Shown: positions 4,372 through 12,624 of the stretch, one piece after another
How positions within the stretch are numbered: position 1 is the stretch's first letter
How the letters are laid out: every line of letters starts with the position of its first letter
From: a virus
Taxonomy: Duplodnaviria; Heunggongvirae; Uroviricota; Caudoviricetes
Direction: 5' to 3' (one strand)
Virus record (IMG/VR): IMGVR_UViG_3300029828_000052
Span: 1 to 14,002 of that record
Length of the DNA: 14,002 bases
Notes under the pieces: generated by a model
Told to the model about the DNA's origin: nothing
The model's input: the letters and a program-made list of their open reading frames with translations, nothing else
Databases searched by the model: none
Made by a program: the position numbers and the translations under genes

Positions 4372-4401
4372 ACTGAATTCCTCGCGGTGATGTTTCGCTT
4401 A

Positions 4402-4530
4402 TCAGCCGTTATATTTTGCCGAACTGGAAAGCGCCTGTTTAAATTCGTTGAAGCTGAGAGCTTCTTCGCCTTCGGCAAGGCCTTCGAAGTATTCTTCGTA
4501 AGCCTTTTCCATGATTGTGTCGAAATCCAT
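4402..4530 (-). CDS. YdfB/YdaG-like small protein (42 aa)
   Basis: My own translation (below the ORF-track size cutoff): MDFDTIMEKAYEEYFEGLAEGEEALSFNEFKQALSSSAKYNG. ATG sits 1 nt after the upstream gene's stop; AGGTGAG SD. Confidence 0.6.
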   Translation of the reverse strand: MDFDTIMEKAYEEYFEGLAEGEEALSFNEFKQALSSSAKYNG

Positions 4531-4531
4531 A

Positions 4532-4687
4532 TCACTCACCTGAGTTTCTTTCCAGCCAGCGACGCGCGCCAGATTCGGTTTTAAACATTTTGCTTTTGGT
4601 ATACGTCATCGCGGTGAACGTGCCGTCCTGGTTTGGGAACACGCCGCATACCAGAGATTCGTTGTTACCAAGATCGATAGTATCCAT
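4532..4687 (-). CDS. YdfA/YdaF-like small protein (51 aa)
   Basis: Internal ATG (4687-4685) of ORF 4532..4780 with GAGG SD: MDTIDLGNNESLVCGVFPNQDGTFTAMTYTKSKMFKTESGARRWLERNSGE. The 31-codon upstream extension runs through the operator sequence and is not used. Confidence 0.65.
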   Translation of the reverse strand: MDTIDLGNNESLVCGVFPNQDGTFTAMTYTKSKMFKTESGARRWLERNSGE

Positions 4688-4765
4688 ATTGACCTCATTT
4701 CCCCTTAACGCCGGGGTAGCGGAACTGTTTGCTGAGAACACCGTGCGGTGTCTTGATGGGTGGTA

Positions 4766-4877
4766 ATTTAGTTTTCTCATGAATTCTGGTCAAGTATTTT
4801 TAATGAGAAAACTCAACATTTAATGCAAAATAAAGCCAATACATTGAAATGTAAGGCTTTAAAATTTGTGAAGGGGG
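4766..4877. promoter_or_regulatory. Leftward early promoter/operator region (PL/OL-like) with two operator-like palindromes
   Basis: AT-rich intergenic region between repressor stop and first early-left gene. TGAGAAAACTCA at 4804-4815 and imperfect copy TTTAGTTTTCTCAT at 4768-4781, centres about 34 bp apart; same motif as the operator at 5336-5349. Confidence 0.5.
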
Positions 4878-5285
4878 TTACTGATGTTTGTTACGTTTGC
4901 GAGCTTCTAGTAGCTCGGTGAATAGGCGATTAAAATTCTCAACGCGGGCACGGAGTTCGCTGATTTGTGCTTGCTGCTCTGATTTTGGAAGTGCGCGATA
5001 CAATCGCAACATCTCCAACTCATCTTCCGATAAGTCTAAGGCGCTGTTGAGTGCAACTGGTGGATCTGGTGTTTTATCCTCGTCACCAAACAGTATCCAA
5101 GTTGGTGAACATTGCAATACCTCAGCCAGGCGATGCAAATTTTGCCCGCGCGGGGCTGTATGGTCGCTTTCCCATAGTGAAATTGATGAGCCAGATACGC
5201 CAGCAGCTTTGCTTAAATCGTTTTGACTTAAACCAACCTGTTTGCGTCTTTCTCTAATTCGTTGACCTAAAGTTTTCTCGTTCAT
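4878..5285 (-). CDS. dicA: HTH XRE-family prophage repressor, DicA-like (135 aa)
   Basis: Complete ORF; N-terminal HTH (LSQNDLSKAAGVSGSSISLWE); VLQCSPTWILFGDEDK and ARVENFNRLFTELLEARKR match my recollection of DicA; divergent from a cro-like gene. No obvious SD, so possibly leaderless. Confidence 0.9.
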   Translation of the reverse strand: MNEKTLGQRIRERRKQVGLSQNDLSKAAGVSGSSISLWESDHTAPRGQNLHRLAEVLQCSPTWILFGDEDKTPDPPVALNSALDLSEDELEMLRLYRALPKSEQQAQISELRARVENFNRLFTELLEARKRNKHQ

Positions 5286-5362
5286 ATTTAGATATCTTAA
5301 TAACCCTTGACTTGAGATTCCTTGAGTGATTACTATTGAGAAAACTCAACTTTGGAGGGGTG
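5286..5362. promoter_or_regulatory. Divergent promoter/operator region (PR/OR-like)
   Basis: -35 TTGACT (5307-5312), 18-nt spacer, -10 TACTAT (5331-5336); perfect palindrome TTGAGAAAACTCAA (5336-5349) overlapping the -10 and +1; CTTGAG half-sites at 5311-5316 and 5321-5326; GGAGGGG SD at 5354-5360. Confidence 0.6.
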
Positions 5363-5590
5363 ATGTTTAAATCAGACGTAATTAATTTTTATGGGACGAA
5401 AGCCAAAGTAGCGAAAGCTGCTGGTGTTGATCCATCTGCTGTTTCTCAATGGGGGGAATTGGTTCCTGAAGGTCGCGCGATGCGCCTGCAAGAGGCATCC
5501 GGCGGGGAACTTCAGTACGACCCCAAAGTTTATGACGAATATCGTAAGGCAAAGCGGGCGGGGCGGTTGAACAATGAAAATCACCCCTGA
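5363..5590 (+). CDS. dicC: Cro-like regulator, DicC/YdaS family (75 aa)
   Basis: ATG at 5363 sits 3 nt after the GGAGGGG SD; the track start at 5336 is a TTG inside the operator. Small basic protein divergent from the repressor gene. Confidence 0.75.
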   Translation: MFKSDVINFYGTKAKVAKAAGVDPSAVSQWGELVPEGRAMRLQEASGGELQYDPKVYDEYRKAKRAGRLNNENHP

Positions 5591-6125
5591 ACAGGTTTGT
5601 GAGGCTCTGGATGCCTGGGTATGCCGACCAGGAATGACACAGGAGCAGGCGACGATATTAATCACGGAAGCATTCTGGGCTCTGAAAGAACGCCCGAACA
5701 TCGATGTTCAACGCGTCACGTTTAATGATGGCGAGGTTGATCAACGGGCGCTGGGCGTTAACCGGGTGAAGATATTCGAACGCTGGAAAGCTATCGACAC
5801 CAGGGATAAGCGGAAAAAATTCACGGCGCTGATTCCGGCAATTATGGAGGCTATCCGAATTAGTGATTTCAGGTTGTATCGTGAGATCAGTGATGGAAAA
5901 AGCATTACGTACATGATCGCCGGATTAAACAAAGAATATGGCGATGTGGTGGAGTCTGGGCTGCTTTTTGCGGATCCATCTGTTGTGGAACGTGAGACTG
6001 ACGAGCTTATAGAAAAAGCTATTGCTTTCAAGCATGCGTATCGTCAGCAATATCAATATTACTTTGCAGATAAACAAATGTCTGCCAGGGGTTCGTATGA
6101 GTATCGATGCACTACGATGGGCTAA
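5574..6125 (+). CDS. YdaT-like (CII-like) regulatory protein (183 aa)
   Basis: Complete ORF overlapping the cro-like gene by 17 nt; second gene after cro; contains ALIPAIMEAI, resembling what I recall of Rac YdaT. Confidence 0.7.
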   Translation: MKITPEQVCEALDAWVCRPGMTQEQATILITEAFWALKERPNIDVQRVTFNDGEVDQRALGVNRVKIFERWKAIDTRDKRKKFTALIPAIMEAIRISDFRLYREISDGKSITYMIAGLNKEYGDVVESGLLFADPSVVERETDELIEKAIAFKHAYRQQYQYYFADKQMSARGSYEYRCTTMG

Positions 6126-11522: not shown

Positions 11523-11674
11523 AAACGGTTTGCGGGAAAAGGAGAGTTAAGTAGAATTGCTGCGGGTGCTTGAGGCTATCTGCCTCAGGCATGAACACCA
11601 AAAGGCAGATAGAGAAAAGCCCCAGTTAACATTACGCGTCCTGCAAGACGCTTAACATTAATCTGAGGCTCCCT

Positions 11675-11887
11675 ATGCATGACAACATCAGGTTAGCCTC
11701 TTACGTGCCGAAAGGCAAGGAGAAGCAGGCTATGAAGCAGCAAAAGGCGATGTTAATCGCCCTGATCGTCATCTGTTTAACCGTCATAGTGACGGCACTG
11801 GTAACGAGGAAAGACCTCTGCGAGGTACGAATCCGAACCGGCCAGACGGAGGTCGCTGTCTTCACAGCTTACGAACCTGAGGAGTAA
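11675..11887 (+). CDS. Mok-like reading frame (in-frame N-terminal extension of hok, 70 aa)
   Basis: Complete 70-aa ORF that contains Hok; this architecture matches the annotated chromosomal mok/hok pairs as I recall them. Confidence 0.5.
   Translation: MHDNIRLASYVPKGKEKQAMKQQKAMLIALIVICLTVIVTALVTRKDLCEVRIRTGQTEVAVFTAYEPEE
11732..11887 (+). CDS. hokD: Hok/Gef-family type I toxin (51 aa), HokD-like
   Basis: MKQQKAMLIALIVICLTVIVTALVTRKDLCEVRIRTGQTEVAVFTAYEPEE: single transmembrane helix and conserved C-terminus typical of Hok; followed by a 3' stem-loop and an intrinsic terminator. Confidence 0.85.
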   Translation: MKQQKAMLIALIVICLTVIVTALVTRKDLCEVRIRTGQTEVAVFTAYEPEE

Positions 11888-11980: not shown

Positions 11981-12345
11981 TCTGTAAATATTTTTATAAA
12001 AATAATGCCCACACACAGCATAAAACAAAAAGTATCACAGATAAAAAAGGAGCGTAATGTGCAGATTTGTTGTTTTCCATATTTACTCACTTTAACATAA
12101 TCAATATTGATATGGTTGTTGTTTTGGTGGTTTCAAACGAGATGTTATGGTGATCTGGTAAAATTGCATAACATTAAAATTTAATTTATCTAATCGCTTT
12201 TAATAATAAGCGTTGTGTTTATCCCAACAATCTGTTGTTTGACTTTTATTCCATTAATGTAGGGGCTTTACACTGGAACCAGTTTATTTATACTTTATAC
12301 GCCAGCCTGAACAACTGGCACCTGCTGCGCCAGCAGAGACAACCG

Positions 12346-12624
12346 ATGGCGCACGATACCAAATTACACAATTCTGATGATTCTGCCGTCTTTGCCAGCA
12401 GGTGCGGACGGCGTTTTCATGCATTCAAATCGGACTGGTTCCAGCATCCACCATGCACTGAAGAGCAGGCTGAATGGATAATTCAGTGTTACCGCAGGCG
12501 CGGATACGAGGTTAAAAAAGCCCTTAGCCTCGACTACCGTCACTGGATAATCTCCGTCAGGCTTCCTTACTCCGAACGCCCACCGCGTCCGTCCCGCACA
12601 TTCCAGCAACGCATCTGGAGGTAA
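12346..12624 (+). CDS. Hypothetical protein (92 aa), Rem-like position between hok and the DUF968 gene
   Basis: ATG at 12346 inside ORF 12235..12624 (track start is a TTG in the AT-rich region); weak SD; stop 1 nt before the next gene's GTG. Confidence 0.5.
   Translation: MAHDTKLHNSDDSAVFASRCGRRFHAFKSDWFQHPPCTEEQAEWIIQCYRRRGYEVKKALSLDYRHWIISVRLPYSERPPRPSRTFQQRIWR

What the first reader, a model, noticed from the sequence alone, without database searches (positions are those of the whole stretch)
4766..5362. Three copies of a TTGAG-N4-CTCAA palindrome bracket the repressor gene
A perfect 14-bp palindrome TTGAGAAAACTCAA (5336-5349) overlaps the rightward promoter -10 and start, and two related sites (4804-4815, 4768-4781) sit in the leftward promoter region; additional CTTGAG half-sites lie at 5311-5326. 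This is a classic OR/OL-type operator layout that would let the DicA-like repressor control both early operons, and its sequence defines the immunity specificity of this prophage.
Basis: seen in the sequence. Interest (0 to 1): 0.4.

Follow-up and report, generated by a model that had tools for sequence, protein, structure and literature searches.

The report
Prophage repressor operators flanking repressor gene
The repeated TTGAG-N4-CTCAA sites are real and are very probably the binding sites through which this E. coli prophage's DicA-like repressor and its Cro partner control the two early promoters; this is an ordinary P22/lambda-type immunity switch with its own operator sequence.

Summary
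TTGAGAAAACTCAA lies at 5336-5349. Close copies lie at 4803-4816 (1 mismatch) and 4767-4780 (2 mismatches, opposite strand). About 0.2 such matches are expected per window.

Two weaker copies of the same 5-4-5 dyad lie at 5312-5325 (fused to the PR -35) and at 5287-5300 (abutting the repressor ATG). That gives three right-hand sites and two left-hand sites flanking the PL -35.

- **Conservation:** Across 55 distinct haplotypes of this immunity type, the five 14-mers are conserved islands with sharply variable flanks (permutation p = 0.0005).
- **Same repressor type, another genus:** Buttiauxella prophages with about 75% identical repressors keep the same sites in unrelated flanks.
- **Other immunity types:** K-12 DicA, two other E. 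coli types and P22 have type-specific dyads at the same positions, and these covary with the recognition helices of both repressor and Cro.
- **Relation to P22:** The layout is positionally homologous to P22 immC, with half-site TTGAG instead of TTAAG.

The 14-mer is a 5-bp inverted repeat around an asymmetric AAAA spacer. The second "CTTGAG" is not the conserved unit. The third right-hand site was missed.

No binding data exist. This is a new member of a well-known kind, of low interest.

The parts
5336..5349 (.). OR1-like operator TTGAGAAAACTCAA. It overlaps the last base of the PR -10 and the predicted start point.
   Evidence: Only 2 of its 14 columns vary at all (2 and 1 of 55 haplotypes), while 5350-5352 next to it are hypervariable. 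It is identical in Buttiauxella L093. It occupies the position of K-12 Oc, which DicA binds in vivo (PMC3441716).
5312..5325 (.). OR2-like site TTGAG-ATTC-CTTGA. The left arm is perfect and the right arm is degenerate. It is fused to the PR -35.
   Evidence: It is positionally homologous to P22 TAAAG-ATTC-CTTTA, with the same spacer and the same -35.
5287..5300 (.). OR3-like site TTTAG-ATAT-CTTAA, abutting the repressor start codon. It contains a candidate -10 (TAAGAT, minus strand, 5299-5294) for the repressor gene.
   Evidence: It is invariant in all 55 haplotypes and identical in Buttiauxella and Citrobacter relatives. It is homologous to the P22 site TTAAG-TCAT-CTTAA next to the c2 ATG.
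4803..4816 (.). OL2-like operator ATGAGAAAACTCAA, just upstream of the PL -35.
   Evidence: The right arm is invariant and the flanks are variable. It becomes TTGAGAAAACTCAA in Buttiauxella. It corresponds to P22 TGAAG-AAAA-CTTAA.
4767..4780 (.). OL1-like operator (plus strand TTTAGTTTTCTCAT; minus strand ATGAGAAAACTAAA). It lies between the -35 and -10 of PL and overlaps the -10.
   Evidence: inverted repeat I1 with OL2. It forms a conserved block 4764-4780 bounded by hypervariable 4758-4763 and 4781-4788.
5307..5336 (+). Predicted rightward early promoter PR: -35 TTGACT at 5307-5312, 18-nt spacer, -10 TACTAT at 5331-5336.
   Evidence: TA..AT of the -10 is kept while 5333-5334 vary among haplotypes. 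The arrangement matches K-12 dicCp, whose start point was mapped by 5'RACE (PMC3441716).
4765..4793 (-). Predicted leftward early promoter PL (dicBp equivalent): -35 TTGACC at 4793-4788, 17-nt spacer, -10 TAAATT at 4770-4765.
   Evidence: Both hexamers are conserved among haplotypes. GGTCAA sits at the same place in most of the other immunity types compared (B, C, L093, L101) and in P22, and varies to GGCAA or other sequences in D and several divergent loci.
4878..5285 (-). Repressor gene: 135 aa, DicA-like, HTH_3 domain only, no S24 peptidase domain.
   Evidence: The closest solved structure is the P22 c2 N-terminal domain (E = 2e-15). It is 55% identical to K-12-type DicA.
5363..5590 (+). 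Cro/DicC-like gene, 75 aa. The N-terminal HTH half is specific to the immunity type; the C-terminal 44 aa are shared by all types.
   Evidence: (P22_Cro, E = 1e-17).
4532..4687 (-). ydfA-like gene (DUF1391), the first gene of the leftward operon.
   Evidence: and the PGAP annotation of 99%-identical DNA.
4827..4861 (-). Terminator-like hairpin with a U-rich tail after the repressor gene, upstream of OL2.
   Evidence: -12.3 kcal/mol, z = -4.45. It is conserved among haplotypes. The simple terminator scan did not call it.
4759..5452 (.). The type-specific immunity cassette: DNA not shared with heteroimmune DicA-type prophages. It contains all five sites.
   Evidence: blastn junctions at 4758-4771 and 5449-5453.

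Best explanation
The sites are the operators of a P22/DicA-type prophage immunity switch.

**What is inferred to bind.** Dimers of the 135-aa HTH repressor, and of the Cro/DicC-like protein, are inferred to recognise the 14-bp dyad T-T-G-A-G-N4-C-T-C-A-A. In the ten half-sites, A4 and G5 are invariant and T2 is nearly so.

**Right side.**
- The strong site at 5336-5349 covers the end of the -10 and the start point of PR, so a bound repressor blocks transcription of cro and the rightward early genes.
- The half-consensus site at 5312-5325 is fused to the PR -35.
- The site at 5287-5300 covers the probable -10 and near-leaderless start of the repressor gene, which gives Cro (or excess repressor) a way to shut that gene off.

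**Left side.** Two sites 36 bp apart bracket the -35 of PL, and one of them overlaps its -10. Repressor bound there silences the ydfA-ydfB-ydfC operon.

**Specificity.** All the sites, the repressor gene and the HTH half of cro lie in one roughly 690-bp exchangeable cassette, so this operator sequence together with the matching recognition helices defines the immunity type.

**Shown versus inferred.** Shown here: the sites, their non-random clustering, their conservation, their covariation with protein type, and their positional homology to P22 and K-12 operators. Inferred: binding itself, which protein prefers which site, cooperativity, and positive autoregulation.
For: - **Presence and clustering:** (3 close copies against 0.2 expected; 5 dyads in 197 nt against 0.14 expected).
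- **Promoter overlap:**
- **Phylogenetic footprint:** in 87 loci (55 haplotypes), site columns show 0.34 variant haplotypes per column against 3.46 in other non-coding columns (Mann-Whitney p = 1e-6; permutation p = 0.0005). The site edges are sharp.
- **Cross-genus conservation:** Buttiauxella repressors 75-76% identical keep TTGAGAAAACTCA(A/G) at both OR1 and OL2, in unrelated flanks.
- **Covariation:** at the same positions K-12 DicA type has TTAGT-N4-ACTAA, type C has TTAGG-AAAA-TCTAA, type D has TTAGA-AAAG-TCTAA and P22 has TTAAG-N4-CTTAA. The recognition helices are GSSISLWES (this type), HVSVSQWER (K-12), HVTISQWER (C and D, which share both helix and operators) and NVAISQWER (P22). The cross-match matrix is block-diagonal.
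- **Cro covaries too:** its HTH half changes with immunity type.
- **Experimental precedent in the family:** K-12 DicA binds Oc, which overlaps the dicC -10, represses dicC and is needed for dicA expression (PMC3441716). DicC ChIP-seq gives peaks on both sides of dicA with a TT(A/C/T)G...C(G/A/T)AA palindrome (PMC11430063).
- **Cassette:** the type-specific DNA is 4759-5452.
Against: - There are no binding or expression data for this immunity type.
- The right arm of the 5312-5325 site (CTTGA) departs from the consensus.
- In K-12, DicA bound only Oc and not the two other sequence-predicted sites Om and Oa (PMC3441716). The OR2-like and OR3-like sites here may therefore be weak, Cro-specific or not bound at all.
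- Conservation of 5287-5300 could be due to the repressor gene's own promoter and translation start rather than to protein binding. Conservation of 5312-5325 could be due to the PR -35.
- Only two sites are visible at PL, not the three of the textbook layout.
- The repressor promoter is not located. Reg-Seq found no active RNA polymerase site for K-12 dicA (PMC7567609).
Confidence: 0.85

Rival explanations
1. Only the three strong copies (5336-5349, 4803-4816, 4767-4780) are operators. The weaker dyads at 5312-5325 and 5287-5300 are not protein-binding sites; they are conserved because they carry the PR -35 and the repressor gene's -10 and start. The switch would then be a one-site right operator, as reported for K-12 DicA.
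For: K-12 DicA bound Oc but not Om or Oa in vivo (PMC3441716). The right arm of 5312-5325 is degenerate. 5287-5300 contains a TAAGAT -10 candidate 8 nt from the ATG, and all immunity types have a TAnnAT at that distance (by reading the sequence).
Against: In every immunity type the sequence at these two positions follows that type's own half-site: TTAGG in type C, TTAGC/GCTAA in K-12, TAAAG/CTTTA and TTAAG/CTTAA in P22. A promoter element alone would not do this. From my own knowledge (not tested here), the homologous P22 sites are established operators OR2 and OR3. K-12 DicC ChIP covers the whole intergenic region and cannot separate the sites.
Confidence: 0.3
2. The sites are recognised mainly by the Cro/DicC-like protein, and the repressor binds a different sequence in the same regions.
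For: The Cro HTH also covaries with the sites. The only genome-wide binding data in the family are for DicC.
Against: K-12 DicA binds the homologous Oc site, and single-base changes in it abolish binding. No other repeated, conserved, type-specific motif is present in the two regions; an unbiased search for the best shared 14-mer recovers the same site. In P22 and lambda, repressor and Cro share operators (my own knowledge).
Confidence: 0.05
3. The repeats are not operators. They would be host-factor sites, A-tract or UP-like promoter elements, or a chance or duplicated inverted repeat around the PL -35.
For: The regions are AT-rich (32% GC). The spacers are A-tracts. The two left sites form a 17-nt inverted repeat.
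Against: Simulations matched to the AT-rich composition still give 0.009 expected close copies. A host-factor or generic promoter element would stay the same in all prophages of the same host, yet the sequence changes with the phage repressor type while the -35 elements are largely conserved. The flanks vary freely while the 14-mers do not.
Confidence: 0.03

Closest known systems
Phage P22 immC region (c2 repressor, cro, OR1-3 / OL)
   Same: - The repressor N-terminal domain aligns without gaps to the P22 c2 N-terminal domain (residues 1-72, E = 2e-15; PDB 1ADR, 2R1J).
- The intergenic DNA is positionally homologous: a site abutting the repressor ATG, then TTGAC(-35) fused to a site with the same ATTC spacer, then a site at the PR -10/+1.
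- On the left, two sites flank GGTCAA, the upstream one with the same AAAA spacer.
- The 5-4-5 dyad geometry is the same.
- Cro belongs to the P22_Cro family.
   Different: - The half-site is TTGAG here and TTAAG/TAAAG in P22.
- The recognition helix is SGSSISLWE here and SNVAISQWE in P22.
- The repressor is 135 aa with a short helical C-terminal part and no LexA-like S24 self-cleavage domain, against 216 aa for P22 c2.
- No third left-hand site is visible here.
E. coli K-12 Qin prophage DicA/DicC module with operator Oc (TTGTTAGTCATAACTAACAA)
   Same: - Same protein family and size (55% identity).
- Same neighbours: ydfA-ydfB-ydfC to the left, dicC and a ydaT-like gene to the right.
- Nearly identical flanking DNA up to the cassette junctions.
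- The strongest site overlaps the -10 of the cro/dicC promoter. DicA represses dicC and dicBp and is needed for its own expression (PMC3441716, PMC10448788).
   Different: - The operator sequence and register differ. K-12 has TTAG..N6..CTAA, with G 3.5 bp from the dyad centre, inside a 20-bp inverted repeat. This type has TTGAG-N4-CTCAA, with G 2.5 bp from the centre and no symmetry beyond 14 bp.
- The recognition helix is different.
- The K-12 antirepressor Rem has no detectable homologue in this window.
Phage lambda cI/Cro with OR1-3 and OL1-3
   Same: The logic is the same: divergent repressor and cro genes, operators overlapping PR, PL and the repressor promoter, and a bistable switch. This comparison rests on textbook knowledge.
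   Different: There is no sequence relationship of the operators. Lambda has 17-bp sites, three at each operator, and a cI with a C-terminal self-cleavage and cooperativity domain.

Membership tests
Lambdoid/P22-type immunity operators (OR/OL) | Divergently transcribed repressor and cro genes separated by a short region that holds several related dyad-symmetric sites | tested here: met
   Three 5-4-5 dyads lie in the 77-bp region 5286-5362.
Lambdoid/P22-type immunity operators (OR/OL) | A second set of the same sites at the leftward early promoter, on the other side of the repressor gene | tested here: met
   The sites at 4767-4780 and 4803-4816 flank the PL -35.
Lambdoid/P22-type immunity operators (OR/OL) | Sites overlap the -35/-10/start of PR and PL | tested here: met
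   The consensus scan is supported by the conservation pattern of the hexamers. Start points were not measured.
Lambdoid/P22-type immunity operators (OR/OL) | Operator sequence covaries with the repressor/Cro recognition helix among heteroimmune relatives | tested here: met
   The match matrix over 14 loci is block-diagonal. Types C and D, which share a recognition helix, also share operators.
Lambdoid/P22-type immunity operators (OR/OL) | Three sites per operator with cooperative filling | tested here: inconclusive
   There are three positions on the right, homologous to those of P22, but two of them are weak. Only two sites are seen on the left. Cooperativity cannot be tested here.
Lambdoid/P22-type immunity operators (OR/OL) | Specific binding by the cognate repressor and Cro | not testable with these tools
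   This needs EMSA, footprinting or ChIP.
DicA/DicC (Qin-type) immunity module | Repressor of about 135 aa with an N-terminal HTH_3 and the conserved C-terminal LP(E/K)SE...NFN.LF.ELL segment, and no S24 peptidase domain | tested here: met
DicA/DicC (Qin-type) immunity module | DicC/P22_Cro partner followed by a YdaT-like gene, with ydfA-ydfB-ydfC downstream of the repressor | tested here: met
DicA/DicC (Qin-type) immunity module | K-12 operator sequence Oc (TTGTTAGTCATAACTAACAA) | tested here: not met
   There is no match within 3 mismatches. This is a different immunity specificity within the family.
DicA/DicC (Qin-type) immunity module | Rem-type antirepressor in the same prophage | tested here: not met
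   tblastn with K-12 Rem finds nothing in the 14-kb window at E <= 1e-3, and NCBIfam and PHROGs give no function for the neighbouring ORFs. The prophage extends beyond the window, so this does not show absence.
P22 c2 repressor proper | C-terminal LexA-like self-cleavage/oligomerisation domain | tested here: not met
   The protein is 135 aa and Pfam finds HTH families only. P22 c2 is 216 aa.

The most novel reading that the evidence does not exclude
This immunity type may be a natural specificity switch on the P22 c2 scaffold. The operator geometry and promoter layout are kept almost base for base, but half-site position 3 changes from A to G, together with changes at c2 positions 32-34 and 37 (N-V-A..Q to G-S-S..L). 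The repressor also lacks the LexA-like C-terminal domain. If this short repressor still fills three right-hand sites cooperatively and activates a near-leaderless repressor promoter, its small helical C-terminal segment would carry functions that P22 and lambda assign to a much larger domain. The pair would also be a clean model for how HTH repressors evolve new immunity.
Probability: 0.3. Interest if true: 0.35.

Novelty: new member of a known kind. Interest (0 to 1): 0.2.

Why it matters
It gives the operator sequence and site map for an immunity type carried by about 15% of complete E. coli genomes (797 of 5,426) and by functional phages such as mEp460 and HannyBb. That helps to predict which DicA-type prophages are mutually immune. 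It also helps to annotate the promoters that silence the ydfABC/dicB-type toxic operons, and to design reporters or repressor-swap experiments. It does not change the understanding of how such switches work.

Tried and rejected
1. **Two CTTGAG direct repeats at 5311-5326 as the unit.** Rejected: base 5326 varies in 9 of 55 haplotypes, while the 14-mer frame 5312-5325 is kept and matches P22 OR2.
2. **A longer operator** (the 25-nt direct repeat 4796-4820 / 5329-5353). Rejected: bases immediately outside the 14-mers are the most variable in the region, and they differ in Buttiauxella.
3. **The 82-aa ORF starting at ATG 4780 inside OL1.** Rejected as a gene start: the predicted PL start point lies downstream of it, and PGAP annotates ydfA from ATG 4687.
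4. **The ninth-base-perfect GAGAAAACT at 5271-5279 inside the repressor gene as a further operator.** Not adopted: the arms are poor, it lies 19 bp from OR3 rather than on the 24-25 bp spacing, and it is coding sequence.
5. **An RNA element in the strongly conserved PL leader (4700-4757).** The fold is not better than shuffles and there is no Rfam family.
6. **A broader sample of immunity types from IMG/VR with a family alignment.** It returned the same type-A loci again, so covariation rests on 14 loci in about 8 specificity groups.
7. **A Rem antirepressor homologue.** NCBIfam, tblastn and PHROGs all found none.
8. **A first simulation script** timed out and was rewritten.
9. **Literature search.** Searches for DicA/DicC operators and for mEp460 found no description of this operator sequence. 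The library is incomplete, so this is not proof that none exists.
Full report
**What is in the sequence.**

TTGAGAAAACTCAA is at 5336-5349. ATGAGAAAACTCAA is at 4803-4816. The unit is a perfect 5-bp inverted repeat (TTGAG/CTCAA) around an asymmetric AAAA spacer, not a perfect 14-bp palindrome.

Allowing two mismatches in the arms alone adds two more sites: TTGAGATTCCTTGA at 5312-5325 and TTTAGATATCTTAA at 5287-5300. The three right-hand sites start 25 and 24 bp apart. The two left-hand sites start 36 bp apart and form a 17-nt inverted repeat around 4784-4799.

**Is it more than chance?**

Three copies within two mismatches of the 14-mer are seen. A first-order Markov model of the window expects 0.2, and 0 of 300 simulations reach three. 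A model of the local AT-rich non-coding DNA (197 nt, 32% GC) expects 0.009. Five arm-only matches fall in those 197 nt against 0.14 expected (0 of 20,000 simulations). Outside the two intergenic regions the window holds only three-mismatch matches, which lack the invariant AG.

**Gene context.**

| Coordinates (strand) | Product | Evidence |
|---|---|---|
| 4878-5285 (minus) | 135-aa HTH_3 protein | |
| 5363-5590 (plus) | 75-aa P22_Cro-family protein | |
| 5574-6125 (plus) | YdaT-like protein | |
| 4532-4687 (minus) | YdfA (DUF1391) | |

DNA 99% identical in E. coli PEC145 is annotated integrase ... dicB, ydfC, ydfB, ydfA, HTH protein, DicC, YdaT. The repressor is 55% identical to K-12-type DicA. 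Its N-terminal 72 residues align without gaps to the P22 c2 N-terminal domain (E = 2e-15). It has no S24 peptidase domain.

The window is therefore the immunity region of a lambdoid, Qin/mEp460-like E. coli prophage.

**Promoters.**

The consensus scan finds exactly two promoter-like sites in 4400-5700:
- PR: -35 TTGACT at 5307-5312 and -10 TACTAT at 5331-5336.
- PL: -35 TTGACC at 4793-4788 and -10 TAAATT at 4770-4765.

The 5336-5349 site begins on the last base of the PR -10. The 5312-5325 site begins on the last base of the PR -35. At PL, one site occupies the spacer and -10 and the other lies 10 bp upstream of the -35.

Among relatives the PR -10 keeps T-A-x-x-A-T while its two middle bases vary, which is the pattern expected of a real -10.

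**Phylogenetic footprint within this immunity type.**

I collected 87 loci with the same repressor (96-100% protein identity). They came from IMG/VR, E. coli genomes, phage mEp460 and two MAGs, and reduce to 55 distinct haplotypes.

The five 14-mers are conserved islands. Site columns show 0.34 variant haplotypes per column against 3.46 in the remaining non-coding columns (Mann-Whitney p = 1e-6). Random placement of five 14-mers does as well in only 0.05% of trials.

The edges are sharp. 5350-5352, 5333-5334, 4781-4786, 4758-4763, 4795-4797 and 4817-4819 are the most variable positions of the region.

**Conservation across genera.**

Two Buttiauxella prophages have repressors only 75-76% identical, with recognition helix DSSISLWES. 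They keep TTGAGAAAACTCA(A/G) at both the OR1 and OL2 positions, (G/T)TTAGTTTTCTCAA at OL1, and an identical ATTTAGATATCTTAAT next to the repressor ATG. The DNA between these sites is unrelated.

**Covariation among immunity types.**

Other DicA-type prophages share nearly identical DNA up to about 4758-4771 on the left and from about 5449-5453 on the right, the right junction lying inside cro at about codon 30. In between they carry different cassettes.

At the same positions each cassette has its own dyad:

| Immunity type | Dyad at the OR1 position | Repressor recognition helix |
|---|---|---|
| This type (A) | TTGAG-AAAA-CTCAA | GSSISLWES |
| K-12 DicA type (B) | TTAGT-N4-ACTAA, inside the 20-bp Oc | HVSVSQWER |
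| Type C | TTAGG-AAAA-TCTAA | HVTISQWER |
| Type D | TTAGA-AAAG-TCTAA | HVTISQWER |
| P22 | TTAAG-N4-CTT(T/A)A | NVAISQWER |

The positions concerned are: abutting the repressor ATG, fused to the conserved TTGAC(T), at the PR -10/+1, and on both sides of the PL -35 (GGTCAA on the plus strand, or a variant of it such as GGCAA).

Types C and D share the helix and share operators. The Cro HTH half changes in step.

An unbiased search for the best 14-mer shared between the two intergenic regions recovers the same site in type A. The matrix of cross-matches over 14 loci is block-diagonal.

This is what is expected if the sites are read by the phage-encoded proteins. It is the opposite of what a host-factor site or a generic promoter element would show.

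**Relation to P22.**

The P22 immC sequence lines up almost base for base:
- P22: CAT-AGTTAAGTCATCTTAAAT-AAAC-TTGAC-TAAAG-ATTC-CTTTA-GT...TTTAAGTGTTCTTTAA
- Window: CAT-ATTTAGATATCTTAAT-AACCC-TTGAC-TTGAG-ATTC-CTTGA-GT...TTGAGAAAACTCAA

On the left, P22 has TTAAGACTTCTTAA...GGTCAA...TGAAGAAAACTTAA and the window has TTTAGTTTTCTCAT...GGTCAA...ATGAGAAAACTCAA.

The window thus has the P22 geometry, with G 2.5 bp from the dyad centre; the K-12, C and D types have it at 3.5 bp. The main difference from P22 is G instead of A at half-site position 3. That these P22 sequences are the established OR1-3 and OL operators is from my own knowledge (Poteete et al. 1980; the c2-operator structure 2R1J) and was not tested here.

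**How it most likely works.**

By homology with K-12 DicA and P22 c2, repressor dimers on 5336-5349 block PR, and dimers on 4767-4780 and 4803-4816 block PL. This keeps cro, the rightward early genes and the ydfABC-type operon silent.

The family has direct evidence. DicA binds Oc in vivo, and single-base changes abolish that binding. Oc overlaps the -10 of dicCp, mapped by 5'RACE. DicA represses dicC about 700-fold and is required for dicA expression (PMC3441716). DicA represses dicBp and can be relieved by the antirepressor Rem (PMC10448788). DicC ChIP-seq gives its strongest peaks on both sides of dicA, with a TT(A/C/T)G...C(G/A/T)AA palindrome, and DicC represses dicA 48- to 84-fold (PMC11430063).

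The site at 5287-5300 contains TAAGAT (minus strand, 5299-5294) 8 nt from the repressor ATG. Every immunity type, P22 included, has a TAnnAT hexamer at that distance. I therefore infer a near-leaderless repressor transcript whose -10 lies inside this site.

That would explain why this site has CTTAA rather than CTCAA: the consensus would destroy the A at -11. It would also give Cro, or excess repressor, a direct way to shut the gene off. This step is inference only. The repressor promoter has not been located even in K-12.

A hairpin with a U-rich tail at 4827-4861 (minus strand, -12.3 kcal/mol, z = -4.45) probably ends the repressor transcript before PL.

Because the protein lacks a self-cleavage domain, induction is more likely by an antirepressor than by RecA-stimulated cleavage. 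No Rem homologue is present in the window.

**What remains uncertain.**

There are no binding data for this type. The OR2-like and OR3-like sites may be weak or Cro-specific, or they may be conserved for promoter reasons; in K-12, DicA did not bind the corresponding Om and Oa. Only two left-hand sites are visible. Cooperativity, looping and positive autoregulation are untested.

**Prevalence.**

The type-specific cassette is present in 797 of 5,426 complete E. coli genomes, and only 14 of them carry two copies. The conserved flanks occur in 3,859 genomes, up to 8 times each. This is compatible with immunity exclusion between prophages of the same type, but it is not a controlled test.

**Verdict.**

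It is a further immunity specificity within the known P22/DicA family. Searches of the available literature found no description of this particular operator sequence. Interest is low.

Noticed in passing
window 4759-5452 (junctions at about 4758-4771 and 5449-5453): The exchangeable immunity cassette ends inside the cro-like gene. The N-terminal HTH half of Cro is type-specific, while its C-terminal 44 residues (LVPEGRAMRLQEASGGELQYDPKVYDEYRK...) and the overlapping ydaT start are shared by all the DicA-type prophages compared.
   Followed up: partly
window 4700-4757 (minus-strand transcript leader of PL): The roughly 58-nt leader between the predicted PL start and ydfA is almost invariant in 55 haplotypes and is shared by heteroimmune types. 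It is far more conserved than its surroundings. Its predicted fold is not better than shuffles (z = -0.5), and there is no Rfam family. Its function is unknown; it might be a nut/put-like or processing signal.
   Followed up: partly
window 4827-4861, minus strand: A conserved hairpin with a U-rich tail lies directly after the repressor stop codon (-12.3 kcal/mol, z = -4.45). It is probably the repressor-gene terminator, insulating PL. The simple terminator scan did not call it.
   Followed up: partly
window 5271-5279: The operator core GAGAAAACT occurs once more, exactly, inside codons 3-5 of the repressor gene, 19 bp from the OR3-like site. Its flanking arms are poor. It may be chance or a weak extra site.
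   Followed up: no
window 4532-4780, minus strand: The mechanical ORF list extends ydfA by 31 codons to an ATG that lies inside the OL1 site and upstream of the predicted PL start. The annotated start in 99%-identical DNA is ATG 4687.
   Followed up: yes
IMG/VR loci among L011-L092 (intergenic haplotypes): A few haplotypes carry OR1 TTAAGAAAACTCAA together with damaged PR -35/-10 hexamers (for example TTGATC and TGCTTT). This suggests decaying cryptic copies in which switch elements are eroding together.
   Followed up: no
L091, L092, L096 (GTDB genome contigs): MAGs labelled Bacillota bacterium, Veillonella parvula and Collinsella sp. carry DicA-type prophage fragments whose repressors are nearly identical to E. 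coli ones: about 96% to the window's repressor in L091 and L092, and near-identical to K-12-type DicA in L096. This is most likely binning contamination by Enterobacteriaceae contigs.
   Followed up: no
window 11564-11887: A sok antisense RNA (Rfam RF01794, 118 bits) lies at 11564-11737, and an ORF with weak Hok-family similarity (E = 1e-12, below the curated cut-off) lies at 11675-11887.
   Followed up: no
window 12235-12624: In K-12 Qin the antirepressor gene rem lies between hokD and ydfU. At that position this prophage has an unrelated 129-aa ORF (phrog_1212, unknown function), and no Rem homologue is detectable. It could be a type-specific antirepressor, but nothing tested here supports that.
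   Followed up: partly
E. coli genome searches: The type-A cassette is in 797 of 5,426 complete E. coli genomes, with two copies in only 14. The conserved DicA-module flanks occur up to 8 times per genome. This is compatible with same-type exclusion but was not tested against a null model.
   Followed up: partly
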